From positions 1-64,000 of the forward strand of contig OZ241993.1 of assembly GCA_965204575.1 (NCBI GenBank): a stretch of DNA of 64,000 bases, given 5' to 3'. This document shows positions 1,336 to 43,465 of this stretch, one piece after another. Source of the DNA: an uncultured candidatus Porisulfidus sp. (GTDB lineage: Bacteria; Pseudomonadota; Gammaproteobacteria; Poriferisulfidales; Poriferisulfidaceae). The first letter of the stretch is position 1; the number at the start of each line of letters is the position of its first letter. A program made the position numbers and the translations under genes. The notes under the pieces were generated by a model. That model was not told the origin of the DNA. It was given only the letters and a program-made list of their open reading frames with translations, and did no database searches.

Positions 1336-1631
1336 CTGATATGGATTTGATCTGTCGTTAGTTATAGTAACATTCTGCATAAGGTTGTAGTCCGCACACT
1401 GAGCCCAGGGCGCGGGAGGATCATACGGCGACGGTCTATCACTCTGATATCCGTGGGTTGGGTACCACCTGACCTGTCTCCGTCGTGGAGCTTCCTCTGT
1501 CTATATTCGTGGGTCGGCATGCTGGAGAGATTGCTCCCTGGCATGCACCACAAATTCCCGCCGAGGATTCTCCGGACCGGCCTCCCGCGCCCTGGGCTCA
1601 ATGTGCGGCTCATGATGCGTGTCCGGCCGGA
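1336..1631 (-). mobile_element. Orphan right end (3' non-coding region) of an IS110-family element
   Basis: Minus strand shares landmarks with the region downstream of the IS110 gene at 19067 (GAGAAxCCT, TAGACAxAGG, GGTAxCCAACCC); ends ...CCATATCAG at 1336-1344. Confidence 0.7.
1392..1608 (-). ncRNA. Putative bridge RNA (orphan)
   Basis: 28-bp closing inverted repeat 1392-1419/1581-1608 with one mismatch that is a G-U pair on the minus strand; internal hairpins; segments match own flank (GGGAA) and own end (CTGATAT). Confidence 0.6.
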
Positions 1632-1808
1632 TCAGTTGACCGCCCGCATGGCATAGGGCCTGCCGTTCACTTCGCAGGCGACCGCCCACAGGAACCCGAC
1701 CATGTGGTTCCAGACGAAGCGGCAGGCCCCGGCGGTGCCGTGCAGTTGCCGGTTCTTTCTTGCAGAACCCGGATGCAGGCGGTAGCGGACGGTGCGGTGG
1801 ACCTTCAT
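1632..1808 (-). pseudogene. Chimeric remnant: TnpB N-terminal HTH fused to IS110 transposase C-terminal tail
   Basis: MKVHRTVRYRLHPG...GACRFVWNH (IS605 OrfB HTH) joined to MVGFLWAVACEV (cf. ELTGFVWDIVCHE at the C-terminus of the IS110 protein at 19067). Confidence 0.7.
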
Positions 1809-4151: not shown

Positions 4152-4446
4152 TCTTGTCGGCCCTCATGCCGTTTATTGTCTCGCCATTGTACATAATTCT
4201 CTGACAGACCTTTCTTATGATCCTATTCCCCGGTTGTTCGGCGAACAACCGGCCTAACTACACATACTGAAAAGTATTTTCAATGTATCCGAACCGATTG
4301 ATTCTATTGTGATAAAGGGGGCATATTAGGAGTTTCTGATTTGAATCCGCCGGCGCGAGAATGGCGGGCCTGCTTTTGTCCGGAGGTCCGACATACACAC
4401 CGGGAGACTGATTTTCTCTCGCGTTTTGCCTCACCCCCCCTATATT

Positions 4447-4455
4447 ATTTCTAAT
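4447..4455 (+). other. Putative recombination site ATTT-CT-AAT, porin copy 1
   Basis: tATTTCTAATTGC; porin homology stops here. Confidence 0.6.
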
Positions 4456-6364
4456 TGCTTTGGCCCTGGCGGCGGCCCCGTTCGCAGCCCAAGCCGAAAC
4501 ATGGAACATATACGGCTGGCAGAACTATTCCTGGGAGTTCGTGGACGAAAAAAACAGTGGTCGCAGTTACGATCGAATTTCCGGAAACGCGGCCAACATC
4601 GGCTTCAGTGCCAACGTGGACACCGGCATGAACGGCATCCACGTCACTCTCCAGTGCGAGTCATGGACGCTCCACAATCACTGGGATGGTCAGGGTGGCT
4701 GGTGCACCCGCAACTCCAAGATCGGCCTGTCTCATCCCCAGATGGGCGAGATCATGTTTGCCACCTGGCTGCTGCCCTACAACGAGGGCGTGGCGCAGTG
4801 GATCGACCCGTTCTACGACGCGGGCGGGGACTCGCATACCAGCATCATGGGTTCGGTCGGTGGCTCTACCTGGTATCATTCTCCTGGCGACTGGAACAAT
4901 CGTTCCGACCCGGACCGACATCCCGACTATGCTACCGGTGTAGACACCGGCTTCAACCGTCGTCAGCAGGAGATCATCCAGTATTGGTCGCCGAACTGGA
5001 ACGGCTTCGTGTTCCGCTTTGCCTGGACTGCAGGATATGAAGATGAACAGCCGTGGGGAAGGAATAATGCCAAACTGGACCCGGTGATTCGCTCGTCCAG
5101 CCTGGCATACACCAACGGCCCATTGTGGTTGGCGGTGGCCTGGCAGGATCACGAGGACTGGACCGCTAGTCGGCAAAAAATTCGCGGAAAAATGGACGGT
5201 TCGGACGCGGAGAGCCTGCGCGTGGCGGGCCGCTACATCATGGACATGGGTGATGGCATGAGCGTTCAGATCTCGGCGATGTGGGAGACCCTGGAGTACG
5301 AGTTCAACGGCGTGACCAGCGTCGATGAAGTAATGGGAGCTTTCTATCTTGGTTCTTTCACCTCCACCTACGACCTGTATCACGACGGGAGCAAGATTGT
5401 CGGGACTCCGGCGGTTCCGGGTACTCCGGCTATGCAGGCCGAGGTCGACGAGAACGACGTCAAGGCTCAGAAGACCCTTGATCTTGTGCGTAAGTTGTTC
5501 TACAACCCAGACGCTACCAGCGAGGCCGCTCCTTATACACTCAAAACCGGTGTCGAGGGAACCGCGTGGGGTGATGTCACTACCCTTCTAGCGGCGGCCG
5601 GCTTTGCTCCGGCGGACGATCCCTTGACGGCGGCGGACGAAAGCAAGGCCGCGGGCAGTTGTGCTGCCACTACTCCCTCGACGTGTACTGACCTTAATCT
5701 CAACGTCTTGGCGGATACTGATACCGCTACTGCCGGGCAGCAGAATGTGCTTAAGGCTGCGATCGAGGCTCTGAACAACGCCCGCGACACGGTTCCGGAT
5801 GACAATAACGATGCGACAACCGAGGACGCAGGCATACAGCCTCCGAACTTGGACGTGGCTGTCGGCCAAACTGGCGCTGGCACTGTAGCTCAGAGAAACG
5901 CCCAGGCCCAATACGACCTTTTGGTCGAGATGGCTACAGCGGCTGCTGAGAAAAAAGCCGGGATGACAGAGGCTGTACCGGCCAAACCCGCAGTCAGCGC
6001 AGCTGCTAACAGAGCTGCAATGACTATGGGCGAGAACGTCAAGATCGAGCGCGACGCCTGGATGGTGTCCGGCAAGATCAAGTTCGGCGGTCCCATCGAC
6101 TTCCGCTTCTCCTACATGGACGCGGACGATCTTGAGGTCTCCTGCGCATCCTGCTCGGGCGACTGGGACGAGACCGCGGCCGACGCCTTCAACGTGGGCA
6201 TCTTCTACACCATGCCGGCCGGCACGGAACTGCGCCTGACCTACTCCGAAGTCAACAACGACGACAACGGCGCTTACGGTCAGGGTGTCACCGGTACCGG
6301 GATCGCCTCACCGGGCAATGAAATCGAAATGTTCGCAGTGGGCATCGTGCACTGGTTCGACTAA
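4448..6364 (+). CDS. Porin copy 1, silent cassette (no ATG/RBS/n-region) with variable central insertion
   Basis: IYG N-terminal strand, YWSPNWNGF, C-terminal GIVHWFD; frame begins FLIALALAAAPFAAQA with no Met-Lys-Lys or SD. Confidence 0.85.
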   Translation, partial: FLIALALAAAPFAAQAETWNIYGWQNYSWEFVDEKNSGRSYDRISGNAANIGFSANVDTGMNGIHVTLQCESWTLHNHWDGQGGWCTRNSKIGLSHPQMGEIMFATWLLPYNEGVAQWIDPFYDAGGDSHTSIMGSVGGSTWYHSPGDWNNRSDPDRHPDYATGVDTGFNRRQQEIIQYWSPNWNGFVFRFAWTAGYEDEQPWGRNNAKLDPVIRSSSLAYTNGPLWLAVAWQDHEDWTASRQKIRGKMDGSDAESLRVAGRYIMDMGDGMSVQISAMWETLEYEFNGVTSVDEVMGAFYLGSFTSTYDLYHDGSKIVGTPAVPGTPAMQAEVDENDVKAQKTLDLVRKLFYNPDATSEAAPYTLKTGVEGTAWGDVTTLLAAAGFAPADDPLTAADESKAAGSCAATTPSTCTDLNLNVLADTDTATAGQQNVLKAAIEALNNARDTVPDDNNDATTEDAGIQPPNLDVAVGQTGAGTVAQRNAQAQYDLLVEMATAAAEKKAGMTEAVPAKPAVSAAANRAAMTMGENVKIERDAWMVSGKIKFGGPIDFRFSYMDADDLEVSCASCSGDWDETAADAFNVGIFYTMPAGTELRLTYSEVNNDDNGAYGQGVTGTGIASPGNEIEMFAVGIVHWFD

Positions 6365-13517: not shown

Positions 13518-13546
13518 CTTTGTAAGGTGTGCCTTGGCTGACTGGA

Positions 13547-15469
13547 TTAGTCGAACCAGTGCACGATGCCCACTGCGAACATTTCAATTTCTAAACCTGC
13601 CTTTCCAAGCCCAGTGCCAGAAATGCCCTGACCGTAGGTTCCGTTGTCGTCGTTGTTGACTTCGGAGTAGGTCAGGCGCAGTTCCGTGCCGGCCGGCATG
13701 GTGTAGAAGATGCCCACGTTGAAGGCGTCGGCCGCAGTCTCGTCCCAGTCGCCCGAGCAGGATGCGCAGGAGACCTCGAGGTCGTCCGCGTCCATGTAGG
13801 AGAAGCGGAAGTCGATGGGACCGCCCATCTTGATCTTGCCGGACACCATCCAGGCGTCGCGCTCGATCTTGACGTTCTGGCCCATAGTCATTGCAGCTCT
13901 GTTAGCAGCTGCGCTGACTGCGGGTTTGGCCGCTACGACCGGTGTCTTCCCAGCTTTGGCCTCAGCAGCATCTGTAGCTGCAGCGACCAGCGCCAGGTAC
14001 GCGACGTGAGCGTCTCTCTCATCCTGAGAACCGCCTGCAGTACCGTCACCGACAGCCGCAGTCAGATCCGGCGGCTGTACGCCTGCGTCTTCAGTTGTCG
14101 CATCGTTGTTGTCATCATCAACCGTGTCACGGGCATTATTCAACGCCGTGATCGAAGCCATGAGAGCTGTGCCGGTAGCACCTTCAGTGAGCACACTTGT
14201 GCCCCCGTTGCCTGCAACCGGATTGCCTTCAGCGTCTACGCCTTCATCCGCTTCGGTAGCAGGGTTGTCAGAGGTCGGTGGGACATAGTTAGGCAAAGAT
14301 GTGAGACCAGTAGGACATCCATTGGCATTATCGCCAGTCACGGCAGAGTTGTCATCGTCCCAACAGTTGGGGAACACCGTTCTCAGCAGGTCGATGGTCT
14401 TCTGCGCCTTGACGTCGTCCTCGTCAACCGGGACCTGCTCGCCTCCGCTCGCCGGAACCGCCGGAGTCATGCCGATGACTTCACCCGCACTATCCAGCAA
14501 GCTGTAGGAGGAACCGAAGTTGGAGTAGCCGAACGCAGTCATGGCCGCATCGACGTTGGTCACGCCGTTGAACTCGTACTCCAGGGTCTCCCACATCGCC
14601 GAGATCTGAACGCTCATGCCGCCGCCCATGTCCATGATGTAGCGGCCGGCCACGCGCAGGCTCTCCGCGTCCGAGGTCTCCATCTGGCCGACGGAAGCCG
14701 CGGTCCAGTCCTCGTGGTCCTGCCAGGTCACCGCCGCCCACACTGGGCCGTTGGTGTAGGCCAGGCTTGAGGAGCGGATCACCGGATCAGTGTCCTTGCC
14801 TGAGTCTGCCCCATACGAGGTTCCACCGTCATCGCGGTTACCGACGGTCCACGCGAAGCGGAACACGAAGCCGTTCCAGTTCGGCGACCAGTACTGGACG
14901 ATGCCTTCCTGGCGACGATTGAAGCCCGTGTCGTCGCCTGCCCCCGCGTAGTTGAACTCATCCCCAGCATAACCGGTGCCCGGCCCCGAGGCGGATGCCT
15001 GGAAGTCGAAGTCGCCGGTGTTGTAGAAGATGGTGCGGGCGCCGACCGAGCCCATGATGCTGGTATGCGATTCCGAGCCCGCGTCGTAGAACGGGTCCAC
15101 CCACTGCGCCACGCCCTCGTTGTAGGGCAACAGCCAGGTGGCCAGCATGATCTCGCCCATCTGCGGATGGGACAGGCCGATCTTGGAGTTGCGGTTGCAC
15201 CAGCCGGTGCCGCCCGCGAAGTGGTTCACGTACATGAACTGCTCGCACTGGACGTTGACCGAGAGGTCGTTGAAGCCGGTGGGCACGCTTGCGCGGAAGC
15301 CGATGTGGGCGGCCGCTCCCTCTATGCGGTCGTAACTGCGGTCAAAACCCGCCGCCTGCTCATCCACGAATTGCCATGAATGGTTCTGCCAACCATAAAT
15401 GTTCCATGTTTCGGCTTGTGCGGCAAACGGTGCTACAATCAAAGCCAAAGCAATTAGAAATGGTTTTTT
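13547..15469 (-). CDS. Porin copy 2, silent cassette (TAA in place of start codon)
   Basis: Minus strand TAA AAA AAA CCA TTT CTA ATT GCT TTG; same conserved barrel segments; ends GIVHWFD. Confidence 0.85.
   Translation of the reverse strand, partial: KKPFLIALALIVAPFAAQAETWNIYGWQNHSWQFVDEQAAGFDRSYDRIEGAAAHIGFRASVPTGFNDLSVNVQCEQFMYVNHFAGGTGWCNRNSKIGLSHPQMGEIMLATWLLPYNEGVAQWVDPFYDAGSESHTSIMGSVGARTIFYNTGDFDFQASASGPGTGYAGDEFNYAGAGDDTGFNRRQEGIVQYWSPNWNGFVFRFAWTVGNRDDGGTSYGADSGKDTDPVIRSSSLAYTNGPVWAAVTWQDHEDWTAASVGQMETSDAESLRVAGRYIMDMGGGMSVQISAMWETLEYEFNGVTNVDAAMTAFGYSNFGSSYSLLDSAGEVIGMTPAVPASGGEQVPVDEDDVKAQKTIDLLRTVFPNCWDDDNSAVTGDNANGCPTGLTSLPNYVPPTSDNPATEADEGVDAEGNPVAGNGGTSVLTEGATGTALMASITALNNARDTVDDDNNDATTEDAGVQPPDLTAAVGDGTAGGSQDERDAHVAYLALVAAATDAAEAKAGKTPVVAAKPAVSAAANRAAMTMGQNVKIERDAWMVSGKIKMGGPIDFRFSYMDADDLEVSCASCSGDWDETAADAFNVGIFYTMPAGTELRLTYSEVNNDDNGTYGQGISGTGLGKAGLEIEMFAVGIVHWFD
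13623..14773. repeat. 1151-bp inverted repeat with 22097-23247
   Basis: By eye identical except one SNP (VDEDD vs VDDDD); alternate-frame ORF translations agree. Confidence 0.85.
15453..15461 (-). other. Putative recombination site, porin copy 2
   Basis: Minus strand CATTTCTAATTGC, 13/13 match to the predicted RNA guides. Confidence 0.65.
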
Positions 15470-15539
15470 TTACTTTCGACAGTCTTGAAAACCCTTCGAA
15501 AAGGCTCTGGCGGTCCCGTATACTGGACTTCCAGCCGGG

Positions 15540-16463
15540 ATGGTCTGCTGTCGCTCTGTGTCTGACCCCGCACACCTTATAAAGTTCAGTCGAGCACGAT
15601 TGAGCGGCCGGCAGATTTCGGAACTGTTGGGATTGTGCAAGGGTCTGATCGCCGACGGGCGAATCACCCAGAGTGAAGCGGAATCGCTTTACGCTTGGTT
15701 GATAGATCAGGAACAATCAGGGCTCCCTCTTGTCCAGACCTTGCAGGCGCGGGTCGGGCAAATGCTCGGAGACGGTGTTCTGGATGCCGATGAAAGTGCG
15801 GAGCTGATGCGGTTGATTCGCGCCCTGATCGACCACCGCGCGGAAGCGGGAATCCCTTTGAGCCGTCGCGGCATGCGGACCAACAGGTTGGACGATTACC
15901 AGGTTTCTGCGTTGCTGGGGCTATGCCGGGGTCTGATCGCCGACGGCAAAATCAATCAGAGCGAGGCGGATGCGCTCCACACTTGGCTGGCGGCCCACGA
16001 AGAGACGGCAGAGAATCCGGTGATGGCGACGTTTAAGGAGAAATTGAAGGATTTTTCCCACGAAGAGACTAAAAACAGCAGTAAAAACATAGAGCTGTTG
16101 AAGCTGCTCGATGGGCTGGTTGGAGGCAAGACGGAAGTCGGGGAATGCCTTCGTGCCACAACCTTATGGCTGGACGACCCACCGCCGGAAGTCCAGTTCG
16201 AAGATCGAAAGTTCTGCCTGACCGGCAAGTTTTCCCACGGCAGGCGCCGGCAGTGCGAGGATGAAATTCGAGCCCGCGGGGGAAGCTGCCAGCAATCCCC
16301 GGCAAAGACGACGGACTACTTGGTGATCGGATCCTACGCCGAAGGCACCTGGATTCAGTCCGCGTACGGGCGCAAGATCGAAAAGGCCGTGGCGCTGCGT
16401 GCCAGCGGTCTGCCCGTTCGGATCATCTCCGAGACACACTGGCTTGCAGGCCTGCGGCAATAA
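15540..16463 (+). CDS. BRCT-domain protein with duplicated TerB-like N-terminal helical domain
   Basis: Two LLGLCxGLIADGxIxQSEA repeats; C-terminal FCLTGKF...TDYLVIG...YGRKIEKA...IISETHW; start uncertain. Confidence 0.8.
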   Translation: MVCCRSVSDPAHLIKFSRARLSGRQISELLGLCKGLIADGRITQSEAESLYAWLIDQEQSGLPLVQTLQARVGQMLGDGVLDADESAELMRLIRALIDHRAEAGIPLSRRGMRTNRLDDYQVSALLGLCRGLIADGKINQSEADALHTWLAAHEETAENPVMATFKEKLKDFSHEETKNSSKNIELLKLLDGLVGGKTEVGECLRATTLWLDDPPPEVQFEDRKFCLTGKFSHGRRRQCEDEIRARGGSCQQSPAKTTDYLVIGSYAEGTWIQSAYGRKIEKAVALRASGLPVRIISETHWLAGLRQ

Positions 16464-16619
16464 TCTTGGGATCTGTACAGGTTCACAGAATACGAGACAG
16501 GACCAGGTCTTGTTCGACATACAACGGATTTCGCCAAGCCACCGTGGCTCCCTCAATCATCACTCGTTAAAAATCGCGAGAATTATGTAGCAAAATCCCC
16601 AAGCGCGGATATAGGCAGC

Positions 16620-16820
16620 TTATTTCCAAACATTAAAAGCAAGGATTCCCAAACCGATTACAGTCGCAATTACCCAAGCCCCGATCTTTATCAAGGTATC
16701 TTTAACCCACTCTCTTATAGCCGTATGTTTGGCGTTTTCTTCCAGAACACCGACCCGTTCATGTATGTCTTTTTTTCTGGCGTATTCTGAAACGCCTTGG
16801 CGTTTTTCCCGCGGAGCCAT
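16620..16820 (-). CDS. Small protein with C-terminal transmembrane helix
   Basis: 66 aa, charged N-terminus then IGAWVIATVIGLGILAF; 2 bp from upstream ORF. Confidence 0.55.
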   Translation of the reverse strand: MAPREKRQGVSEYARKKDIHERVGVLEENAKHTAIREWVKDTLIKIGAWVIATVIGLGILAFNVWK

Positions 16821-16822
16821 AA

Positions 16823-17083
16823 TCAGTCAAGCCAATCCCACAACTTGCCGTCAAAGAAGCCGTAATAGGTATGGTTTATCTTGATTACAACGCCGTTCTT
16901 GGGGTTGTCGCTATCAAGGATACCTAGTTTCAACGCGACTATTTCAGCCACCAATTCCGTGCGGACCAGCAAGGTTTCCTTGCCGAGCCGGTAGCTGTCC
17001 TCAAACAATTCCTCGGCCACAGATTGAACATCTGTGTCCACAGAATAAACGACGTAAACCCGCTTTTCTGCTTCATCTGGCAT
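16823..17083 (-). CDS. Hypothetical 86-aa protein
   Basis: Compact alpha/beta pattern ending YYG...LWDWLD; operon-like with 16620-16820. Confidence 0.6.
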   Translation of the reverse strand: MPDEAEKRVYVVYSVDTDVQSVAEELFEDSYRLGKETLLVRTELVAEIVALKLGILDSDNPKNGVVIKINHTYYGFFDGKLWDWLD

Positions 17084-17129
17084 AGTGCAATCTTATCATG
17101 TCGACCTGTCAATTTCCTTGCGGATTTTG

Positions 17130-17969
17130 CTACATAATCCCCAAAATCGCAGGGCAGTCCAGATCTATGTCATGGTTAACCGTTAATTTCCACTTGGGAT
17201 TATCTATGTACGGTCTGGGATGAATTTCATCAAACCAGGAAACGGGAGGCCTGAGGAGCTTTACTGATCTTGCCTCTTTGGCAAAAGGCTCCAGCACCTC
17301 GGCTTGGCGTGCGTGCCCAACGAAATCCAGTAGGTAGCCGAGCCGGCGCACTGTGGAATTTTCGTAGTTTGAAGCGACATCCGCCAACTTCTTGGGTTCA
17401 GCCTTCATGCCCATGTCTTGGATGATTTGGGCCAAATTGTCAAAGCCGGCAACTTTTCGGAGATAACGGGCTCAATCCAGCAAGGTCACTTCTACGCCGC
17501 TCGCTTTGGCTTTTTCGCCCAAGCGACCTTGAACCGGCATGAGCCAATCCGGTCGATTTGTTTTCTCGAACATCGATGGAGCCTGAAAGACGAACCGGAC
17601 CTGGTTTCCATCGATGTCGAAGTCCCGCAGCTGCTTTGGCACGATGATCTGAAAGACCATGGGTGCCTGATGCGAAGCTCCGTGACAGCTGGCTGCGCCG
17701 AGCAAGCCAATCCGGTAATCCAGGCCTATATGCTTCATAAGCGGGTCGACCCAGTCGAGCACATGAGGAACTTGACCTCTGTCTTCCGGGCGTAGGATCA
17801 GGTAGAAACCACGGCGGGGAGACGCCAATCGACGCTTTTTGAGCAACCGACCCGCCGCCGCGATAAACGCCGAGGATTTCATGTCCAGCACTTTCAATGC
17901 CTCTTTCTTTGAGAAAAAAGCATGCCCTTGTGCTAGACGATCATCAAGGTATTGGCTCAATGCGGCCAT
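17130..17969 (-). pseudogene. Type IV TA antitoxin AbiEi with in-frame nonsense codon
   Basis: RRGFYLI, GLLGAASCHGASHQ, TLLD-TGA(17472-4)-ARYL..., RRLGYLLD continue in one frame. Confidence 0.75.
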
Positions 17970-18037
17970 CCCCCAATCATATACGAAAATAAGGGAATGT
18001 AGCGAAATCCGCAAGGGTGGTTAGTTGGGGGGCAAGG

Positions 18038-18256
18038 CTAATGAGAAGTCAATTCGATTCCAAGATAGCTTTCGACAATCCGCACTTTTTCTGGTGAATA
18101 CATTCCGTTTTAATCGGGGTCTGGCACCTGTATCACACGGTGATTTTCATTTTGCCAGAAGGTGGCAGTTTCCGTTCTCTCTTCTGATTTTTTGTAACCC
18201 ATAGCTGCCACCTTCTGATGTAGTTCTTCCTTCGACATCCAGCGATCATAGGTCAT
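18038..18256 (-). pseudogene. HicA-like toxin with internal stop
   Basis: MTYDRWMSKEELHQKVAAMGY...FWQNENHRVIQVPDPD-TAA(18110-2)-NGMYSPEKVRIVESYLGI; ATGA overlap with upstream gene. Confidence 0.5.
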
Positions 18257-18564
18257 GCTGGCACCAGACAAAATTCTTTATCTGACAAAACAAAAGAATC
18301 CTCTCTGATTTCTTGCTCGACCGTAGAATGATCCTCGGCCATGTGTGCCAGAAAATCATCCAGGGAAATAGCGGTTTCCACATTAAATTCACGTCCGGTC
18401 TTGATTTTCAGTATTTTTTTTATCGACGGAACCAGTTGACGATAAACTGTTGCTGCGTCTTCATTGGCCACCAGCAGCCCGTCGAGATCATCGGAAGTGA
18501 ATATGTGATGATCGTGCTCGAAGCGGTAAAGCACCTTTATCACCGCAACGGTTGATGACGACAT
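18253..18564 (-). CDS. HicB/DUF1902-like antitoxin
   Basis: IFTSDDLDGLLVA motif; SD AGGAG before ATG 18564. Confidence 0.6.
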   Translation of the reverse strand: MSSSTVAVIKVLYRFEHDHHIFTSDDLDGLLVANEDAATVYRQLVPSIKKILKIKTGREFNVETAISLDDFLAHMAEDHSTVEQEIREDSFVLSDKEFCLVPA

Positions 18565-18829
18565 TTTCTCTCTCCTGTCAATTAACGCCGAACACGCCGC
18601 ACTGCAAAGCGACCTGGTAAGCGGTTGAATGGCATGGTCTTTGTCCCGATTAATAAGGGACAATTCATGTTATCACAGGGCGGAAAAATTGAACAAGCGA
18701 CGGCGGCTGGTGACGGCGGCTGGCCAGGAAATAGTCAGCCAGACCTTGCAGATTTTGCTACATATTCCCAAGATATCTGCATATGATCGGGGAAGGAGCA
18801 ATAAGCTTAAGCTTTATTTGCACCTAGAA

Positions 18830-19050
18830 CCGGGCGCAGAAATCAGGATACCCCAACCCTTTGCAACAGCAGACCATCCAAGACTCGGGTTGGTTACCGA
18901 TGCGGTCTGTAGGAGTCGCGGAGTCAAGCCTTTGTCTAATTGCATGGATCACGATGCCAGACATGCCGCTTGGGCGTGAACGGCTTCGCACCGATGTAGA
19001 AATGCCAAGGGTTCTCCGACAGACTGGAGCATCCTGGTTTCTGCGGCCGG
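18830..19050 (-). ncRNA. Putative bridge RNA with guides matching the porin junction site
   Basis: 26-bp closing stem (19025-19050/18830-18855, 24 pairs including two G-U on the minus strand); guides CATTTCTA (19004-18997) and GCAATTAGA (18943-18935) flank an internal hairpin. Confidence 0.7.
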
Positions 19051-19066
19051 ACTTTCAATCAAGTAA

Positions 19067-20239
19067 TCAAGCCTCCTGCGTTACGCGGCTGATGCGGGAT
19101 TTCTCATGGCAAACGATGTCCCAGACAAATCCCGTCAATTCCCGTGCGATCGCGACGCAAACCACTTTCTGGTTCTTGCCTTCCGCGATTAGTTTCCGAT
19201 ACCGCCCGCACAGTCGTTTTTGCGCCTTCCACGCGATGGCCTGGGCATAGGCGGAAGCGCCTTCCGCCTTGCGGTTCATGTAGGCGGTCTGGCGGGCTGG
19301 AAACCGGTAGCACCAGGCCGACTCGACCAGCACCTGCCGGGCGTGGCGGTTCCCTGCCTGCGTGACGCCGCCGGTACGGCGGTGTGCTCCGGAACTGTAG
19401 ACACAAGGCACCAGCCCCAGATAACCCATCAACTGGTTGGGAGACCCGAAGCGGCTGATGTCGCCCAGTTCGGACAGCAGCGTGACCGCGGACAACTGGT
19501 CGAACCCGCGCAACGCCATCAGGCTGTTGGCCAGCGGCGCCCAGGACCAACCCCGCAGGACCTGGCTCAGTTTTTCATCCAGGTCGATCATGCGCGAGGA
19601 CGAAAGACGCACGGCCGCAATGTACTCGTCTCGGACTTCGGCCTGATAATCATATGAAAAATCAAGGCTTTCCAGCCATTCGAGATGTTTCTGCGTCCAG
19701 CGCTTCCGGTTGGTCGGCCAATGATGCCCGTGGCGCAGCACGAAGGCATTGAGCTGCTGGCGCAACTTCTGCTGTTGCGCCTTGAAGTCGGCGCGACAGC
19801 GGCACAGGTCGCGGACCGCTTCCTGTTCCTGGTCCGGCACCCAGACCTCGACCAACTCCCCGGCGCGCAGAAGCCGTGCCAGGCGCAACGCGTCCCTGCG
19901 GTCGGTCTTGATCTTTTCATTGCGCGGCGGGGCCACGACCTGGCAGTCCATGCCCATCGCGGTCAGGCTCTGGTACAGGGTGTACCCGCAAGGCCCGGCC
20001 TCGTAGCAAAGCAGGAAGGTTTCTTTTTCCGAATACAGCCGGTCGACGAGTTTGGCGACCGCTTTTTTCGTATTCGGTATGGTGCCCCAGGACTCGGGGG
20101 CTTCCCGACCCGCGTAGGCGACGGCGACGGCGATGCTGTCCTTGTGGACATCGAGTCCGACGTAGCCTGCGTAGGGTTTGGCGTGAGCCGAGTGGTCGGA
20201 AGGAGGGGTTCCGGCGGTTTCGGGGGGCTGTTGTTCCAT
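19067..20239 (-). CDS. IS110-family (Piv/DEDD) recombinase
   Basis: YVGLDVHK, CYEAGPCG, KTDRRDA, GYLGLVP..YSSG, AIAREL; SD GGAG before ATG 20239. Confidence 0.93.
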   Translation of the reverse strand: MEQQPPETAGTPPSDHSAHAKPYAGYVGLDVHKDSIAVAVAYAGREAPESWGTIPNTKKAVAKLVDRLYSEKETFLLCYEAGPCGYTLYQSLTAMGMDCQVVAPPRNEKIKTDRRDALRLARLLRAGELVEVWVPDQEQEAVRDLCRCRADFKAQQQKLRQQLNAFVLRHGHHWPTNRKRWTQKHLEWLESLDFSYDYQAEVRDEYIAAVRLSSSRMIDLDEKLSQVLRGWSWAPLANSLMALRGFDQLSAVTLLSELGDISRFGSPNQLMGYLGLVPCVYSSGAHRRTGGVTQAGNRHARQVLVESAWCYRFPARQTAYMNRKAEGASAYAQAIAWKAQKRLCGRYRKLIAEGKNQKVVCVAIARELTGFVWDIVCHEKSRISRVTQEA

Positions 20240-20484
20240 TGTTATCTCTCCTTGAAATCGGGGTGTATGAATAAACACTGGGAGCGGGTCCGAGTGCAGT
20301 AGTCTGGGCCACGATGAGAGACAACTCTCACGAAATGTTGATGGTCGTCTTCGGTTTATGGCCAACACATGATTTAGTCCTATTTCAAAGAGGTCAGTTC
20401 AGGGGAAATCGGAAAGAGGGGCAAGAGTTGACTTCCATTCAGACTAGTCGTATAATCTAGTCTAAATTTTGAGGGGAGGCAACA

Positions 20485-20727
20485 ATGAAAACGATCGGAG
20501 CCTATGAAGCCAAGACGCATCTGCCCAGGCTGCTTGACCGTGTGGCGCACGGCGAGCATCTGACTATCACCAAACACGGCAAACCCGTTGCCCAACTGGT
20601 GCCTGTCACCACAAGGGAAGAGCGCGCACAGGAAGCGATTGACCGCATCACCGAACTTCGCCGGCACATCAAGTTGGCGCCATTGGCAGAATTGATGGCC
20701 ATGACTCACGAAGGGCACCGCTATTGA
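20485..20727 (+). CDS. Phd/YefM antitoxin
   Basis: IGAYEAKTHLPRLLDRV...ITKHGKPVAQL; palindrome AGACTAG-N9-CTAGTCT at 20441-20463. Confidence 0.9.
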   Translation: MKTIGAYEAKTHLPRLLDRVAHGEHLTITKHGKPVAQLVPVTTREERAQEAIDRITELRRHIKLAPLAELMAMTHEGHRY

Positions 20728-21137
20728 TCGTCGTAGATAACTCCGTTTTCCTCGCCTGGTGCGTGGGCGAGGAAGAGGAAAGTGGCTTGGTTGCGGCCGA
20801 GACGGTCCTGCGCGTTGCCAATGAAGGCGGCGTCGCGCCGCACATATGGTGGTATGAATTCCGCAATGCGCTTCTGATGAATGAGCGCCGTGGACGCATT
20901 TCATCCGAGCAGACGTCAAGAATCCTGGCTGCCGGCCTTGCACTGAACGTAGAGGTTGACGAAAACCACGATGAAACACAACTCCTCGATTTGGCCCGCC
21001 GGTTCGACTTGACTGTCTATGATGCCGCATACTTGGAGGTTGCCTTCCGGCGTAGCCTGCCTCTGGCGACTTTTGACCGCCGCCTGAGCAAGGCGGCAGA
21101 AGCCGTCGGGGTTGCTGCAGTCCACCACGAGGTTTAA
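20724..21137 (+). CDS. vapC: VapC PIN-domain toxin
   Basis: IVVDNSV, YEFRNAL, LTVYDAAYLE, LATFD. Confidence 0.88.
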   Translation: MIVVDNSVFLAWCVGEEEESGLVAAETVLRVANEGGVAPHIWWYEFRNALLMNERRGRISSEQTSRILAAGLALNVEVDENHDETQLLDLARRFDLTVYDAAYLEVAFRRSLPLATFDRRLSKAAEAVGVAAVHHEV

Positions 21138-21160
21138 GAGTTCCGAGAGGTGAAAAAAAG

Positions 21161-21452
21161 CCATTTCTAATCGCCACGGCTTGGGTTTCGGTTCCGCTCG
21201 GGGTCCCAGTTGGGGTGGTTGTCATGAGCCGTTGTTTTTTAGAAACGGAAAAGGCTGGGCATCGGATTTCCCGTTGATTCTCTGTAGTTGTAAAAAAACA
21301 ACATTGGGAAGATTTGACAATTCTGCAAAGGCATAGACAATTCGCACTTGAATATGGCAGTTTTGCCACATTCCCGTGGGGAATGATCACCCTGCGGAAT
21401 TAGTAATATTTTTAGGAGTCCTAAAAAATGAAAAAACCATTTCTAATCGCCA
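21161..21452 (+). other. 276-bp porin promoter/RBS/ATG module bounded by 16-bp direct repeats
   Basis: CCATTTCTAATCGCCA at 21161-21176 and 21437-21452; CT cores at 21167 and 21443. Confidence 0.7.
21314..21418 (+). promoter_or_regulatory. Porin promoter, hairpinned 5' UTR and RBS
   Basis: TTGACA 21314-9, GACAAT 21336-41 (16-bp spacer), hairpins TGGCA/TGCCA and CATTCCC/GGGAATG, AGGAG 21414-8. Confidence 0.6.
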
Positions 21453-23323
21453 TGGCTTTGATTGTAGCACCGTTCGGTGCGCAAGCAGAGACGTGGAACA
21501 TTTATGGTTGGCAGAATCATTCTTGGGAGTTTGTGGATATCGACGGCGGACGCAGCTTCGACCGGATCCAGTCCAACGCGGGCAACATCGGATTCGCGGC
21601 GAGCGTGCCCACCGGCTTCAACGACCTCTCGGTCAACGTCCAGTGCGAGCAGTTCATGTACGTGAACCACTTCGCGGGCGGCACCGGCTGGTGCAACCGC
21701 AACTCCAAGATCGGCCTGTCTCACCCGCAGATGGGTGAGCTGATGCTGGCCACCTGGCTGCTCCCTTACAACGAGGGCGTGGCGCAGTGGGTCGACCCGT
21801 TCTATGACGCTGGCGCGGACTCGCATACCAGCATCATGGGATCGGTCGGTGCCAATACCATCTTCTACAACACTGGTGACTTCGACTTCCAGGCATCCGG
21901 CTCGAGTCCGGGCTCTGCTCAGACCGAGTTCAACTACCAGGTTGGCGGCTACGACACGGGCTTCAACCGTCGTCAGGAGAACATCATCCAGTACTGGTCT
22001 CCGAACTGGAACGGCTTCGTGTTCCGCTTCGCGTGGACCGCTGGCAACCGCGATGAGACCCCTCACATGGGAGGGGAAATCGACCCGGTAATCCGTTCCT
22101 CAAGCCTGGCCTACACCAACGGCCCAGTGTGGGCGGCGGTGACCTGGCAGGACCACGAGGACTGGACCGCGGCTTCCGTCGGCCAGATGGAGACCTCGGA
22201 CGCGGAGAGCCTGCGCGTGGCCGGCCGCTACATCATGGACATGGGCGGCGGCATGAGCGTTCAGATCTCGGCGATGTGGGAGACCCTGGAGTACGAGTTC
22301 AACGGCGTGACCAACGTCGATGCGGCCATGACTGCGTTCGGCTACTCCAACTTCGGTTCCTCCTACAGCTTGCTGGATAGTGCGGGTGAAGTCATCGGCA
22401 TGACTCCGGCGGTTCCGGCGAGCGGAGGCGAGCAGGTCCCGGTTGACGACGACGACGTCAAGGCGCAGAAGACCATCGACCTGCTGAGAACGGTGTTCCC
22501 CAACTGTTGGGACGATGACAACTCTGCCGTGACTGGCGATAATGCCAATGGATGTCCTACTGGTCTCACATCTTTGCCTAACTATGTCCCACCGACCTCT
22601 GACAACCCTGCTACCGAAGCGGATGAAGGCGTAGACGCTGAAGGCAATCCGGTTGCAGGCAACGGGGGCACAAGTGTGCTCACTGAAGGTGCTACCGGCA
22701 CAGCTCTCATGGCTTCGATCACGGCGTTGAATAATGCCCGTGACACGGTTGATGATGACAACAACGATGCGACAACTGAAGACGCAGGCGTACAGCCGCC
22801 GGATCTGACTGCGGCTGTCGGTGACGGTACTGCAGGCGGTTCTCAGGATGAGAGAGACGCTCACGTCGCGTACCTGGCGCTGGTCGCTGCAGCTACAGAT
22901 GCTGCTGAGGCCAAAGCTGGGAAGACACCGGTCGTAGCGGCCAAACCCGCAGTCAGCGCAGCTGCTAACAGAGCTGCAATGACTATGGGCCAGAACGTCA
23001 AGATCGAGCGCGACGCCTGGATGGTGTCCGGCAAGATCAAGATGGGCGGTCCCATCGACTTCCGCTTCTCCTACATGGACGCGGACGACCTCGAGGTCTC
23101 CTGCGCATCCTGCTCGGGCGACTGGGACGAGACTGCGGCCGACGCCTTCAACGTGGGCATCTTCTACACCATGCCGGCCGGCACGGAACTGCGCCTGACC
23201 TACTCCGAAGTCAACAACGACGACAACGGAACCTACGGTCAGGGCATCTCCGGTACCGGACTGGGTTCGCCTGGTGTGGAGATCGAGATGTTCGCAGTCG
23301 GTATCGTGCACTGGTTCGACTAA
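21428..23323 (+). CDS. Porin copy 3, the only complete (expression-site) copy
   Basis: Full signal peptide MKKPFLIAMALIVAPFGAQA, SD, intact frame to GIVHWFD. Confidence 0.92.
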   Translation: MKKPFLIAMALIVAPFGAQAETWNIYGWQNHSWEFVDIDGGRSFDRIQSNAGNIGFAASVPTGFNDLSVNVQCEQFMYVNHFAGGTGWCNRNSKIGLSHPQMGELMLATWLLPYNEGVAQWVDPFYDAGADSHTSIMGSVGANTIFYNTGDFDFQASGSSPGSAQTEFNYQVGGYDTGFNRRQENIIQYWSPNWNGFVFRFAWTAGNRDETPHMGGEIDPVIRSSSLAYTNGPVWAAVTWQDHEDWTAASVGQMETSDAESLRVAGRYIMDMGGGMSVQISAMWETLEYEFNGVTNVDAAMTAFGYSNFGSSYSLLDSAGEVIGMTPAVPASGGEQVPVDDDDVKAQKTIDLLRTVFPNCWDDDNSAVTGDNANGCPTGLTSLPNYVPPTSDNPATEADEGVDAEGNPVAGNGGTSVLTEGATGTALMASITALNNARDTVDDDNNDATTEDAGVQPPDLTAAVGDGTAGGSQDERDAHVAYLALVAAATDAAEAKAGKTPVVAAKPAVSAAANRAAMTMGQNVKIERDAWMVSGKIKMGGPIDFRFSYMDADDLEVSCASCSGDWDETAADAFNVGIFYTMPAGTELRLTYSEVNNDDNGTYGQGISGTGLGSPGVEIEMFAVGIVHWFD

Positions 23324-23331
23324 GACAGTCT

Positions 23332-24284: not shown

Positions 24285-25313
24285 ATGGAGTATAGCAATA
24301 AACCGGTGGTCGGCGTGGATACCGCGAAGCACGTGTTCCAACTGCACTGGGTGGAGGCCGGCGGCGAACTGGTCGATCTGAAGCTGTCGCGGCAGAAGTT
24401 CGTCGAGCACTTTGCCAACCGGGCGCCCTGCCGGATCGGGTTGGAAGCCTGCGGCGGTTCGCAGGAGTGGGCGCGCCGGTTCCGGCAGATGGGACACGAG
24501 GTGACCGTGTTGCCGGCGCAGTCGGTGCGGGCGTTCGTCACCGGCAACAAGAGCGACGTGCAGGATGCGCGGGCGATCTGGACGGCGGTGCAGCATCCGC
24601 GGTCGAAGTCGGTGGCGATCAAGGACGAGGAGCAGCAGATGATTCTGGGGCTGCACCGCCTGCGGCAGCAGCAGGTGAAGTTCCGCACGGCGACGATCAA
24701 TAGCCTGCGCGGCCTGCTGGGCGAATACGGGGAGGTGATGCCGCAAGGACGGGCCGGGCTGAGCCGGGAGATCGAAGGCGTGCTGGACCGGCTGGCTGGG
24801 CGAGTCCCGGAGATGGGTCGGGAAGAGTTATCCGCGCAGTGGCGTCGCGTCCACGAGCACGACGAGGCGATTGCGCGGGTCGAGCGGAAGCTGGAGGCAT
24901 GGTGCACAAGCCATGAGGCTTGCCGGCGACTGCGGGAGGTGCCGGGCATCGGCCTGCTGACCGCGACCGCCCTGGTCGCCGCCGCGGGAGACGCGCGGGC
25001 GTTCCGCAACGCTCGGGAGTTCGCGGCCTGGCTGGGGCTGGTGCCGCGCCACAGCGGCACTGGCGGGAAGACCCGCATTCTCGGCATCAGCAAGCGGGGC
25101 GACCGCTACCTGCGCACGCTGCTGATCCATGGCGCCCGGTCACTGCTGGCCAACGGCCGGGAGCTGCCCGAGTGGGTCGAGAAGATCAAGCGGAACAAGC
25201 CGTTCAACGTCGCCGCGGTGGCAGTCGCCAACCGGCAGGCGAGAATCGCCTGGGCCTTGCTGGCCCATGGCCGCAAGTACCAGAAAGATTACGTCTGTCC
25301 GCCGCGCGGCTGA
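24285..25313 (+). CDS. IS110/IS1111 transposase
   Basis: VGVDTAKHVFQ, LEACGG, NKSDVQDA, AAWLGLVP..SGTGGK, GDRYLR. Confidence 0.95.
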   Translation: MEYSNKPVVGVDTAKHVFQLHWVEAGGELVDLKLSRQKFVEHFANRAPCRIGLEACGGSQEWARRFRQMGHEVTVLPAQSVRAFVTGNKSDVQDARAIWTAVQHPRSKSVAIKDEEQQMILGLHRLRQQQVKFRTATINSLRGLLGEYGEVMPQGRAGLSREIEGVLDRLAGRVPEMGREELSAQWRRVHEHDEAIARVERKLEAWCTSHEACRRLREVPGIGLLTATALVAAAGDARAFRNAREFAAWLGLVPRHSGTGGKTRILGISKRGDRYLRTLLIHGARSLLANGRELPEWVEKIKRNKPFNVAAVAVANRQARIAWALLAHGRKYQKDYVCPPRG

Positions 25314-36452: not shown

Positions 36453-36782
36453 ATTCCCTCCTGATTCTCACCCGGTCCTCCAATACTGACTTTAAATCAG
36501 TCGGTAGTTTGAATTTAAATTGGTCGGAAATGGTTTCCTGGATATTCGTTCTGCAGTCCAGAATCTGTACATGCCTGAGTAAAATCATCTTATATCATTG
36601 TTAAAAAAGTAATTTACTAGATTTATCTCCAACATGACTCCTGCAAATAAATCCCTTGGCTCCATACGGAAAACTCGTTTATATTCTTCGCTGAAATGAG
36701 CAAATGCAAGCCAGAATTTAAATTAGCCAATACCTTTACATAATATTCCAGACTGCCCCCCTTTACGAAGTAACTCAATATT

Positions 36783-36791
36783 ATTTCTAAT
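36783..36791 (+). other. Putative recombination site, porin copy 4
   Basis: tATTTCTAATCGC; homology to copy 3 starts here. Confidence 0.6.
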
Positions 36792-36847
36792 CGCCATGGC
36801 TTTGATTGTAGCACCGTTCGGTGCGCAAGCAGAGACGTGGAACATTT

Positions 36848-43456: not shown

Positions 43457-43465
43457 ATTTCTAAT
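43457..43465 (+). other. Putative recombination site, porin copy 5
   Basis: aATTTCTAATatt; in-frame TAA just upstream. Confidence 0.55.

What the first reader, a model, noticed from the sequence alone, without database searches (positions are those of the whole stretch)
18860..18930. Donor-binding loop appears collapsed in the porin-targeting RNA
Seen: in the orphan RNA, GGTACCCAACCC is followed by GGATATCAG matching its element end. Here GGTAACCAACCC is followed by GAGTCTTGGATGGTCTG, which pairs back on CAGACC and matches neither end. The protein also has a short VVAPPRNEKIKTD segment; from memory, relatives carry about 5 more residues there. Inference: loss of self-mobilisation and a shift to target-by-target recombination using one guide loop twice, which would interest genome engineers.
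Basis: inference. Interest (0 to 1): 0.7.

Follow-up and report, generated by a model that had tools for sequence, protein, structure and literature searches.

The report
Domesticated bridge recombinase switching porin genes
A transposase of the RNA-guided "bridge recombinase" kind appears to have been tamed by its host: it has lost the parts that let it move itself, and keeps a guide RNA whose one intact guide loop matches the start of a family of porin genes that look shuffled at exactly that spot.

Summary
The RNA (window 19050-18830) lies 3' of an IS110/IS1111-family DEDD recombinase. In 27 of 27 aligned mobile-type RNAs, the window's orphan included, the second loop carries an AUAUCAG-type 7-mer equal to the element's right end. 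All 13 RNAs of this clade lack it, and that strand is zipped into a covarying helix (CAGACC/GGUCUG). The protein is 5 residues shorter before KTDxxDA in 13 of 13 orthologues.

The gene is single-copy, present in 12 of 15 congeners, under purifying selection (dN/dS 0.04-0.16), and lacks a right terminal repeat. Its first loop is nearly invariant. Read in IS621 geometry it specifies CATTT-CT-AATTGC, and the only 4 genomic matches (up to 1 mismatch) are porin gene starts. I listed 47 porin-cassette junctions in 14 genomes; homology starts at ATTTCTAAT. Each of 10 genomes shows one junction with ribosome site and ATG. In 10 of 13 genomes the recombinase lies beside porin cassettes. The segment is inverted between species. 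One congener lacks recombinase, RNA and site, and has a tyrosine recombinase between its porins.

Best reading (0.6): a domesticated, one-loop RNA-guided invertase for porin switching. Inversion in a population, RNA expression and RNA dependence are untested.

The parts
18830..19050 (-). Structured guide RNA (about 221 nt) 3' of the recombinase gene: a long closing stem, loop A and loop B
   Evidence: Conserved in 13 orthologous loci. RNAalifold gives 65 pairs, 27 with compensatory changes. Single-sequence fold z = -3.99. Homologous to the 3' RNAs of mobile relatives (A3). No Rfam family at gathering score.
18997..19006 (-). Loop A 5' strand GGCAUUUCUA: left-target guide plus CU core. It has the same sense as the porin coding strand CATTT-CT-A
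   Evidence: Unpaired in the consensus. AUUUCUA is present in 13 of 13 orthologues. The homologous strand is variable among mobile relatives. In copy L078 the flank read in antisense is AGGAGGCT, matching loop strand AGCCUCCU.
18933..18942 (-). Loop A 3' strand CAAUUAGACA: antisense to CT-AATTG of the porin site, followed by two handshake-like bases
   Evidence: With the preceding G it is a 9/9 complement of TCTAATTGC at porin starts 4450 and 15458. The geometry is that of IS621 loops (PMC11208160, passages read).
18863..18919 (-). Loop B, the former donor-binding loop. Basal stem GCGAC/GUUGC; helix CAGACC (18909-18904) / GGUCUG (18875-18870); mini-hairpin UCGG-UAACCAAC-CCGA (18900-18885); variable strand GUCUUGGAU (18884-18876)
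   Evidence: Covariation in the helix and the mini-hairpin. The AUAUCAG-type donor guide is present in 27 of 27 mobile-type RNAs and 0 of 13 of this clade. The variable strand finds no consistent partner.
19067..20239 (-). IS110/IS1111-family DEDD recombinase (390 aa from the ATG at 20239)
   Evidence: PF01548 E 2e-17 and PF02371 E 3.3e-18. Motifs GLDVHKD, CYEAGPCG, KTDRRDA and GLVPCVYSSG are present. A profile of the clade reaches IS621 8wt6 at E 3e-7. dN/dS is 0.04-0.16 against 11 orthologues, with 1 pair not computable.
19901..19939 (-). Shortened segment VVAPPRNEKIKTD, directly before the catalytic KTDxxDA
   Evidence: There are 6 residues between P and KTD, against 11 in the mobile sisters and 14 in IS621.
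20360..20402 (-). Decayed left-end relic: GGACTAAATCATGTGTTGGCC resembles the left terminus and subterminal repeat CTAGACATCATGTATTGACC of mobile relatives. The conserved upstream block starts at CTGAACTGACC
21437..21450 (+). Expression ('ON') junction: taggag, ATG (21428), AAAAAA, then CCATTT-CT-AATCGC, fused to porin P3 (21428-23323)
   Evidence: The same junction type was seen once in each of 10 genomes.
21314..21341 (+). Promoter-like site (TTGACA-16-GACAAT, 10 of 12) inside the segment, upstream of the ON junction
   Evidence: This is a consensus match only.
15450..15463 (-). Silent junction, inverted relative to ON: gtaaaaaaaaCCATTT-CT-AATTGC with no ATG, fused to porin P2 (15469-13550). 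An exact match to the composite guide target
15464..21436 (.). Candidate invertible segment. It holds the BRCT-like gene (15540-16463), small cassettes, the RNA, the recombinase, Phd/PIN genes and the promoter-like site
   Evidence: It is flanked by inverted sites and is inverted relative to outer blocks in G003 and G009 versus the window, G001 and G008. Contigs of X1 and X2 break exactly at 15444 and 21468.
4445..4458 (+). Silent junction ctatattATTTCTAATTGC fused to porin P1 (4460-6364; Porin_4)
36781..36794 (+). Silent junction caatattATTTCTAATCGC of porin P4. Its body (to 40017) is interrupted by another IS at 36854-38179
43457..43465 (+). Junction aaaaATTTCTAATattttt of porin P5 (43455-45216)
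21161..21174 (+). Extra site copy GTGaaaaaaagCCATTTCTAATCGC with a divergent signal-peptide-like remnant, 276 bp upstream of ON and in direct orientation
   Evidence: (D11).
1336..1700 (-). The 'orphan': right-end remnant of a mobile relative. It comprises the last codons of a transposase, a complete RNA (closing-stem arms 1608-1581 and 1419-1392), donor guide GGAUAUCAG (1452-1444), subterminal repeat 1356-1341 and the terminus at 1336
   Evidence: (I19).

Best explanation
An IS1111-type, RNA-guided (bridge/seekRNA) recombinase has been domesticated in this genus as a site-specific recombinase for a porin gene family.

The RNA keeps one working guide loop, loop A. [quoted passage not shown] That sequence lies in codons 4-8 of the porin signal peptide, where every porin cassette begins.

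The former donor loop (loop B) has lost its guide for the element's right end and is zipped into a helix. The element's own ends have decayed. The enzyme therefore cannot recognise itself as a donor, and both DNA partners are porin sites.

Recombination at the CT core between the single expression junction (promoter, ribosome site, ATG-AAA-AAA-CC) and an inverted silent cassette would invert the DNA between them and put a different porin behind the promoter. Successive inversions would reach further cassettes.

Shown here: the anatomy, the conservation, the guide-site match, the cassette boundaries, and the inversion between species.

Inferred: that this enzyme makes the inversions, that the RNA guides it, and that two RNPs each contribute loop A to one synapse.
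For: (1) The donor side is lost. The AUAUCAG-type guide is in 27 of 27 mobile-type RNAs and 0 of 13 of this clade. In mobile relatives that guide equals the right terminus in 44 of 55 parsed loci, with covarying variants. There is no right subterminal repeat here and only a left relic.

(2) The gene is domesticated.
- One copy in the 1.8-Mb genome.
- Orthologues at 69-92% identity in 12 of 15 congeners.
- All 13 matched stretches lack stop codons; dN/dS is 0.04-0.16 at dS 0.5-1.8.
- One clade (SH-aLRT 100, stem length 0.49) nested among multi-copy IS (quick tree).
- Identity falls in step with that of the neighbouring BRCT-like gene.

(3) Loop A is an unpaired 10 x 10 internal loop, nearly invariant in 13 of 13 orthologues while the stems covary. 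The homologous strands vary among mobile relatives, which marks it as the target loop.

(4) The composite target CATTTCTAATTGC has 1 exact and 3 one-mismatch hits in the whole genome. All 4 are at porin cassette starts. Permuted 13-mers average 0.61 hits. Six of the 9 genomic ATTTCTAAT copies are at porin starts.

(5) I listed 47 junctions in 14 genomes. Homology starts at ATTTCTAAT, mostly behind unrelated left flanks. One junction with ribosome site and ATG was seen in each of 10 genomes.

(6) The recombinase and RNA lie between inverted porin starts in the window and in 6 of 7 relatives' 20-kb loci, and beside porin cassettes in 3 draft genomes.

(7) The segment is inverted relative to the outer blocks in G003 and G009 compared with the window, G001 and G008.

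(8) Contig joints exist at the site. X4 joins 4446 to 21439 with 9 shared letters, and X2 has P1's left flank running into a P2-type body.

(9) Natural control: G006 (complete genome) has no recombinase or RNA. Its porin starts read ACGTCCCTAAT, and a tyrosine recombinase (PF00589, E 1.3e-17) sits between divergent porins. That enzyme is absent from this genome and from 10 other loci.

(10) Same-loop synapsis has a proposed precedent in IS621.
Against: - There is no guide-site covariation. Both are nearly invariant, so RNA guidance rests on the match and its geometry.
- Pairing is short: 4-5 nt left of the core, against 7 in IS621. The fourth right-arm position is mismatched at many sites (AATCGC against guide CAAUU). 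Genomes with guide CUAUU show no site that fits it better.
- Only one of the two handshake-like bases would pair in a site-by-site exchange.
- The four genomic hits are paralogues, so they are not independent.
- The sites were collected with a motif search, so the 47 share the motif by construction. Only G015 (6 of 6 with it) and G006 (0 of 4) were collected by protein alone.
- The silent junction beside the BRCT-like gene resembles the ON junction upstream of the site too, so not all left flanks are unrelated.
- P2 and P3 are 1.9-kb inverted repeats, 98% identical over 1256 nt, so ordinary homologous recombination could invert the segment.
- In 3 of 13 genomes (G004, G014, G015) the module is not near porin genes in what I examined.
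- The recombinase was also not found in G011 and G012, which carry the site. Both are draft assemblies, so this is not informative.
- There are no raw reads, and whether the RNA is made is unknown.
Confidence: 0.6

Rival explanations
1. Piv-like invertase without RNA guidance. The recombinase does invert the porin segment but recognises the sites through protein-DNA contacts. The RNA would be a structural cofactor or a relic.
For: Piv of Moraxella is an IS110-family relative that inverts pilin gene segments (PMC11187229, passages read). The searches found no paper describing a guide RNA for it. Pairing arms here are short and do not covary with the sites.
Against: Both strands of loop A match the two halves of the site around a shared CT, in the exact register of characterised loops. 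Those 20 nt are nearly invariant across dS of about 1 or more while the stems drift.
Confidence: 0.1
2. Immobile IS remnant. An IS that once targeted the porin start was stranded there. The porin shuffling is made by homologous recombination among paralogues or by another enzyme.
For: There are long inverted porin repeats. Mosaic contig joints lie inside porin bodies (5914 to 22967, and 22356 to 5365). No direct link between the enzyme and the rearrangements has been shown.
Against: A relic should not keep an intact frame at dN/dS 0.04-0.16 in 13 species, nor invariant guide strands. Homologous recombination does not explain a common boundary at one nucleotide in front of many different flanks. 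No other recombinase family was found among the 8 segment ORFs scanned. G006 swaps enzyme and site together.
Confidence: 0.15
3. Still mobile by a non-canonical route. The module moves through half-match recombination or as part of a larger unit, and the porin start is simply its insertion target.
For: The module lies in at least three contexts in the genus: between porins, next to kdsA in G004 and G014, and elsewhere in G015. Flexible half-match recombination and expanded IS110 elements have been reported (abstract of 10.64898/2026.08.14.744561). In G001 and G003 the left-end relic reads GTCTAATTG/C, complementary to the loop A 3' strand.
Against: There is one copy per genome for this clade in every genome searched. 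There is no right terminus. The sites around the segment are inverted, not direct. Porin starts occur many times without the element.
Confidence: 0.1
4. Antisense regulator. The RNA acts on porin mRNA, with GCAAUUAGA pairing to codons 6-8, as MicF-type small RNAs do, and not on DNA.
For: It is a 9-nt complement to the 5' coding region of porin mRNAs. Porin-regulating small RNAs are established knowledge (recalled, not from a call).
Against: This does not explain the sense-strand match CAUUUCUA abutting at the core, the conserved catalytic recombinase, or the cassette boundaries.
Confidence: 0.05

Closest known systems
IS1111-group insertion sequences with a 3' seekRNA / bridge RNA (PMC11187229; PMC11208160)
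   Same: The DEDD recombinase has the GL-P----SG motif. The RNA lies downstream of the gene. The RNA is homologous, column by column, to those of 55-64%-identical multi-copy IS found here, which have subterminal repeats ATGTATTGACCTG / CAGGTCAATACAT. The target loop geometry is retained.
   Different: There is no right subterminal repeat or terminus, and the left end has decayed. The donor guide is lost and its loop is zipped. There is a 5-residue deletion before KTDxxDA. The gene is single-copy, vertically conserved and under purifying selection. The target occurs as a family of host gene starts.
IS621 bridge RNA system (IS110 group; PDB 8wt6)
   Same: [quoted passage not shown] Handshake positions follow the core.
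   Different: The protein is only distantly related (profile E 3e-7). The RNA is at the other end of the gene and, relative to the recombinase gene, is read on the opposite strand. Only one programmable loop remains. The left arm is 4-5 nt rather than 7.
Piv pilin invertase of Moraxella (Piv/MooV family)
   Same: A host-kept IS110-family recombinase that switches alternative surface-protein genes by inversion at sites in their 5' parts.
   Different: Piv belongs to the short IS492/IS621 branch. This protein belongs to an IS1111-like branch and carries a recognisable guide RNA matching the sites. It serves a multi-cassette porin family rather than two pilin genes.
Shufflons and tyrosine-recombinase surface-gene inversion systems
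   Same: There is one expression site and several silent cassettes in both orientations, with a short common crossover site at the start of the cassette.
   Different: The enzyme class and the mode of site recognition differ. Congener G006 appears to use the tyrosine-recombinase solution at the same porin family, with a different site.
Same-loop (DBL-DBL) recombination of IS621 (preprint 10.64898/2026.08.31.748434)
   Same: A synapse in which two RNAs contribute the same kind of loop, as needed here.
   Different: There it is the donor loop, it serves excision, and it is an inferred side pathway. Here it would be the target loop and the only pathway.

Membership tests
IS110-family DEDD recombinase (protein) | N-terminal RuvC-like DEDD domain | tested here: met
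   PF01548 E 2e-17. D in GLDVHKD, E in CYEAGPCG and D..D in KTDRRDA are present and invariant in 7 aligned sequences.
IS110-family DEDD recombinase (protein) | C-terminal Tnp domain with the G(L)-P----S/T-G motif (as defined in PMC11187229, section 6) | tested here: met
   PF02371 E 3.3e-18. GLVPCVYSSG starts at residue 276. A profile aligns it to IS621 residues 202-266.
IS1111-group insertion sequence (mobile element) | Subterminal inverted repeats at both ends | tested here: not met
   Mobile relatives have them. Here only a left relic remains (20360-20380). Nothing follows the RNA, and in 7 orthologues homology stops right after the closing stem.
IS1111-group insertion sequence (mobile element) | Several copies, or insertion polymorphism | tested here: not met
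   One match in the own genome. One orthologue per genome in 12 congeners.
IS1111-group insertion sequence (mobile element) | Long non-coding region with the RNA downstream of the transposase gene | tested here: met
Bridge RNA / seekRNA | Internal loop whose two strands match the two strands of a DNA site, overlapping at a core | tested here: met
   Loop A against CATTT-CT-AATTGC. Geometry as in the passages of PMC11208160.
Bridge RNA / seekRNA | A second loop or guide that recognises the element's own ends (the donor) | tested here: not met
   0 of 13 RNAs carry the AUAUCAG-type guide, against 27 of 27 mobile-type RNAs. The strand is variable and partly base-paired.
Bridge RNA / seekRNA | The RNA is made and binds the recombinase | not testable with these tools
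   The tools on hand cannot show either.
Site-specific inversion switch (Piv type or shufflon type) | Recombinase gene within or beside a segment bounded by inverted sites at the 5' ends of alternative genes | tested here: met
   The window and 6 of 7 relatives' 20-kb loci.
Site-specific inversion switch (Piv type or shufflon type) | Both orientations are found | tested here: inconclusive
   The segment is inverted between species, and there are two contig-level joints at the site. There is no read-level evidence within one population.

The most novel reading that the evidence does not exclude
A natural one-loop guide RNA with its recombinase forms a symmetric target-by-target synapse, in which two RNPs each use the same loop. 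It works as a host-owned, RNA-programmed DNA invertase that runs a porin shufflon. It arose once from an IS1111-type element through loss of the donor guide and the ends, together with a 5-residue deletion next to the active site. In one congener it was replaced by a tyrosine recombinase with a new site.
Probability: 0.45. Interest if true: 0.9.

Novelty: new variant of a known kind. Interest (0 to 1): 0.82.

Why it matters
Bridge and seekRNA recombinases are known only as selfish insertion sequences and as engineered tools. If this reading is right, it would be a case of a cell taking one over for its own programmed DNA rearrangement. My four literature searches found no such report.

It would show that one guide loop can suffice for recombination between two like sites, giving a smaller programmable invertase design. 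It would give Piv-type invertases a possible RNA-guided relative. It would also describe a porin variation system in a small-genome bacterium, where porins are likely targets of phages or of a host. The G006 replacement offers a natural comparison of two solutions to the same task.

Tried and rejected
- Rfam at gathering score over the whole window gave 0 matches.
- A single-sequence search of PDB chains gave 0 hits. Only the profile reached IS621.
- A search of the IS621 structure paper for residues of the shortened loop (K89, R98 and others) found no mention. The role of that loop stays open.
- No RNA holder was listed among 23 runs, so whether the RNA is made is unknown.
- All four runs laid are Logan contigs. 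The 6025-nt contig that ends at both sites (15444-21468) would break there at any inverted repeat, so it proves nothing. Joints inside porin bodies may be graph paths.
- I searched for a partner of the variable loop B strand in 7 genomes and found only self-hits and scattered 8-mers. One 9-mer at 17415 in the window is at chance level (about 0.5 expected by my arithmetic).
- I considered pairing of GGUAACCAACCC with the downstream GGGUUGGGG. It is not supported by covariation, whereas the hairpin UCGG/CCGA is.
- I considered the long inverted repeat around each RNA as element ends. Rejected: both arms lie downstream of the gene and covary as an RNA stem.
- G011 and G012 carry sites, but no recombinase was found. 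Both are draft assemblies (120 and 30 contigs), so this is not informative.
- The careful tree search did not finish, so the quick tree was used.
- Supplementary files of the papers were not opened. They may hold IS1111 RNA models that bear on the loop assignment.

Full report
WHAT IS AT THE COORDINATES

The finding lies on the minus strand, in the non-coding stretch after an IS110-family gene. That gene matches PF01548 (E 2e-17) and PF02371 (E 3.3e-18). The coding sequence runs 20239-19067. GGTAACCAACCC is at 18898-18887, and the second copy of the motif, GGTACCCAACCC, is at 1466-1455.

The region folds better than shuffles (z = -3.99). Orthologous loci from 12 other genomes of the genus carry the same RNA. 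RNAalifold on the 13 sequences gives 65 pairs, 27 of them with compensatory changes. The structure has three parts:
- a long closing stem (19050... with ...18830);
- loop A, a 10 x 10 internal loop (GGCAUUUCUA at 19006-18997, CAAUUAGACA at 18942-18933) under a variable hairpin;
- loop B (18919-18863).

THE FAMILY, AND WHICH LOOP DOES WHAT

A scan of species genomes with a protein alignment returned 80 loci at 54-64% identity, plus one identical to the query's first sequence. Many of these elements are multi-copy within one genome. Copy comparisons give elements of about 1.5-1.7 kb with subterminal inverted repeats: left CTAGACATC-ATGTATTGACCTG, right CAGGTCAATACAT-ATCAG. This is the IS1111-group hallmark described in PMC11187229 (section 6 read) and PMC11208160 (passages).

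Their 3' RNAs align with the window's RNA (A3: 40 rows, made of 13 of this clade, the orphan, L017 and 25 mobile loci that I picked from the 80).

In the mobile RNAs the strand between the mini-hairpin and the basal stem of loop B is always 20 nt (27 of 27 rows). It reads G-N-AUAUCAG-NNN-GAUC-N-ACC. With a pattern search, 70 of 81 loci could be parsed:
- 62 have ATATCAG, 4 ATCTCAG, 3 ATACCAG and 1 CTATCAG;
- in the 55 loci where the right terminus was also parsed, the guide equals the terminal 7-mer in 44;
- the 11 exceptions differ by 1-2 nt;
- covarying cases are L092 and L120 (ATACCAG) and, by eye, L144-146 (ATATGAG).

Loop B is therefore the donor loop of this family.

Loop A's strands are the variable ones. 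In copy L078 the flank read in antisense is AGGAGGCT, matching loop strand AGCCUCCU. [quoted passage not shown] This agrees with the 'reversed order' stated in the abstract of PMC11187229.

THE OBSERVATION, CHECKED

The orphan (about 1700-1336, minus strand) is the right-end remnant of such a mobile element. It holds the last transposase codons, a full RNA, GGAUAUCAG at 1452-1444, a subterminal repeat at 1356-1341 and the terminus at 1336. Its target guide also fits its own flank: GGGAA against TTCCC.

In the window's main RNA, and in all 13 of its clade, the AUAUCAG-type guide is absent (0 of 13). The homologous bases form a helix with the 5' strand. That helix is CAGACC/GGUCUG here, CAGGCU/AGCCUG in G003 and CAGGCC/GGCCUG in G002 and G009; pair 154:203 is GC 6, AU 4, GU 2, UG 1. 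What stays single-stranded (GUCUUGGAU) varies in sequence and length among orthologues and finds no consistent partner.

The strand is 17 nt here against 20 nt, so the loop is zipped and re-written rather than deleted.

The protein claim also holds. There are 6 residues between VVAP and KTD in 13 of 13 orthologues. There are 11 in all 67 mobile loci that could be parsed of 81, and 14 in IS621.

NOT A MOVING ELEMENT ANY MORE

- The gene has one copy in the 1.8-Mb single-contig genome.
- It has one orthologue in each of 12 of 15 congeners. G006 and G011 have none, and G012 has only a 31% relative.
- The matched stretches of all 13 lack stop codons. dN/dS against the window is 0.04-0.16 with dS 0.5-1.8 in 11 pairs; one pair was not computable.
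- In a quick maximum-likelihood tree (85 rows after dropping 10 identical rows; the careful search did not finish) the 13 form one clade. It has SH-aLRT 100, sits on a stem of 0.49, and is nested among mobile elements.
- No right subterminal repeat follows the RNA. In 7 orthologues homology ends at the closing stem, next to the 3' end of a BRCT-like gene.
- A decayed left relic remains at 20360-20380.

WHAT LOOP A POINTS AT

The two strands specify CATTT-CT-AATTG(C). In the whole genome this 13-mer has 1 exact and 3 one-mismatch hits (15462, 4446, 21162, 21438). All 4 are at the starts of porin paralogues. Permuted 13-mers give 0.61 hits on average, with a maximum of 6. In the window there are 5 hits at up to 2 mismatches, against 0.88 expected.

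The paralogue at 4460-6364 is a Porin_4 protein (E 3.7e-17). The others gave no Pfam hit but are 65-92% identical to each other.

The window holds five porin bodies and six site copies. Only 21439 has taggag, ATG and six A in frame. The copy at 15461 is inverted and has no ATG. Those at 4447, 36783 and 43457 have unrelated left flanks. The copy at 21163 is an extra fragment.

A promoter-like match lies at 21314-21341, inside the segment.

ACROSS THE GENUS

I listed 47 junctions in 14 genomes. Homology begins at ATTTCTAAT, and upstream of it most left flanks differ. The BRCT-side silent junction is an exception, because it resembles the ON junction further upstream. One ON-type junction was seen in each of 10 genomes. 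Most of this list came from a motif search, so the shared motif is partly by construction. The protein-only collections are G015 (6 of 6 with the motif) and G006 (0 of 4).

The recombinase and RNA lie between two inverted porin starts in the window and in 6 of 7 relatives' 20-kb loci. They lie beside porin cassettes on the same contig in G002, G005 and G007. They are not near porin genes in G004 or G015. No porin was found in G014, whose assembly is 76% complete. Those three keep the loop A strands.

Synteny shows the segment inverted relative to outer blocks B (window 8020-11755) and C (28900-35700). In the window, G001 and G008 the silent side faces B. In G003 and G009 the ON side faces B.

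Contigs of run X4, a related strain, join 4446 to 21439 with 9 shared letters. In X2 the contig over P1's left flank stops 12 nt earlier than in X1, and a 12-letter branch (TTTGATTGTAGC) continues as a P2-type body. I read this as a minority join of P1's flank to P2's body. This is weak evidence: contigs only, depth unknown.

A NATURAL CONTROL

G006 is a complete genome with neither recombinase nor RNA. It has four porin genes in alternating orientation. All have their own ATG, and all read ACGTCCCTAAT where the others read CCATTTCTAAT. A 358-aa tyrosine recombinase (PF00589, E 1.3e-17) lies between two divergent porins. It is absent from the window's genome and from 10 other loci. Enzyme and site thus change together. 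This is the strongest indirect argument that the DEDD enzyme serves the ATTTCTAAT site.

MECHANISM

I propose that loop A recognises every porin site, and that two RNPs synapse an ON site with an inverted silent site. Strands would be exchanged at the CT core, as in IS621, through composite RuvC-Tnp active sites and a Holliday junction (PMC11208158 and PMC11208160, passages).

A same-loop synapse has been proposed for IS621 (DBL-DBL; preprint 10.64898/2026.08.31.748434; abstract and sections 7 and 9 read).

The evidence against this reading is set out in the Against line. In brief: no guide-site covariation, short arms, a frequent mismatch at the fourth right-arm position, long homologous inverted repeats that could do the same job, three genomes with the module elsewhere, and no read-level or RNA data.

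NOVELTY

Four full-text searches found no report of a bridge or seekRNA recombinase kept by a host for gene switching:
- 'bridge RNA' + 'phase variation';
- IS110 / domesticated / invertase / Piv;
- 'bridge RNA' + domesticat + IS110;
- IS110 / DNA inversion / outer membrane / antigenic variation.

The nearest items were Piv, and a preprint on IS110-Nop5 kinship that I saw only in the search listing. Supplements were not opened, and subscription journals are not covered. I file the finding as a new variant of a known kind.

Noticed in passing
window 16582-16603, 17117-17138, 17997-18016, 18745-18764: A 20-nt motif (TATGTAGCAAAATC[CT]GCAAGG, in both orientations) brackets small ORF cassettes between the BRCT-like gene and the RNA. 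They include an AbiEi-like protein (17472-18014, PF09407 E 6e-9). The array is absent from most orthologous loci and looks like a cassette array of its own.
   Followed up: partly
window 36854-38179 (minus strand): A 441-aa transposase ORF with its ends interrupts the silent porin cassette P4, between its first ~20 codons (36783-36850) and the rest (38197 onward). Its end sequence also shows up as a loose end in run X2 at 21503.
   Followed up: partly
L064:377-1453 (G006), between porin genes: A tyrosine recombinase (PF00589) sits between divergent porin genes in the one complete congener that lacks the DEDD recombinase and its RNA. The four porin starts there share homology up to TAAATG.
   Followed up: partly
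L004 and L006 (G001, G003), about 250 nt upstream of the recombinase ATG; window 20372-20380: The left-end relic reads GTCTAATTG (G001) or GTCTAATTC (G003). This is complementary to the loop A 3' strand including the handshake-like bases. The window has GGACTAAAT there. It may be a retained half-site, or it may be chance.
   Followed up: no
window 15463-15475; L024 site 8062; L025 site 9212: The A-tract before CC-ATTTCTAAT differs in length. ATG + A6 is in frame at ON junctions. ATG + A5 is out of frame, running into TAA, at the second junction of G009 and G010. The window has GTA + A8. Slipped-strand switching could be a second control layer.
   Followed up: no
window 13540-14795 and 22075-23330: The 3' 1256 nt of porins P2 and P3 are 98% identical inverted repeats, while their 5' thirds are 80-88% identical. 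This suggests gene conversion of the 3' parts.
   Followed up: no
window 15540-16463: A 307-aa protein with two internal 90-nt repeats and a weak BRCT match (E 5e-4, below the cut-off) lies next to the RNA end in the window and in 6 of 7 relatives' loci. It is a possible accessory factor.
   Followed up: no
window 21161-21201: A second, divergent copy of the porin start (47 nt, 79% identical) lies 276 bp upstream of the real one, in direct orientation. The promoter-like site lies between the two. Recombination there would remove or bypass the promoter.
   Followed up: no
window 24549-25166; genome 713838, 1242205, 1814136: Distant IS110-family matches (24-26% identity to this recombinase), so other unrelated family members live in the same genome.
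   Followed up: no
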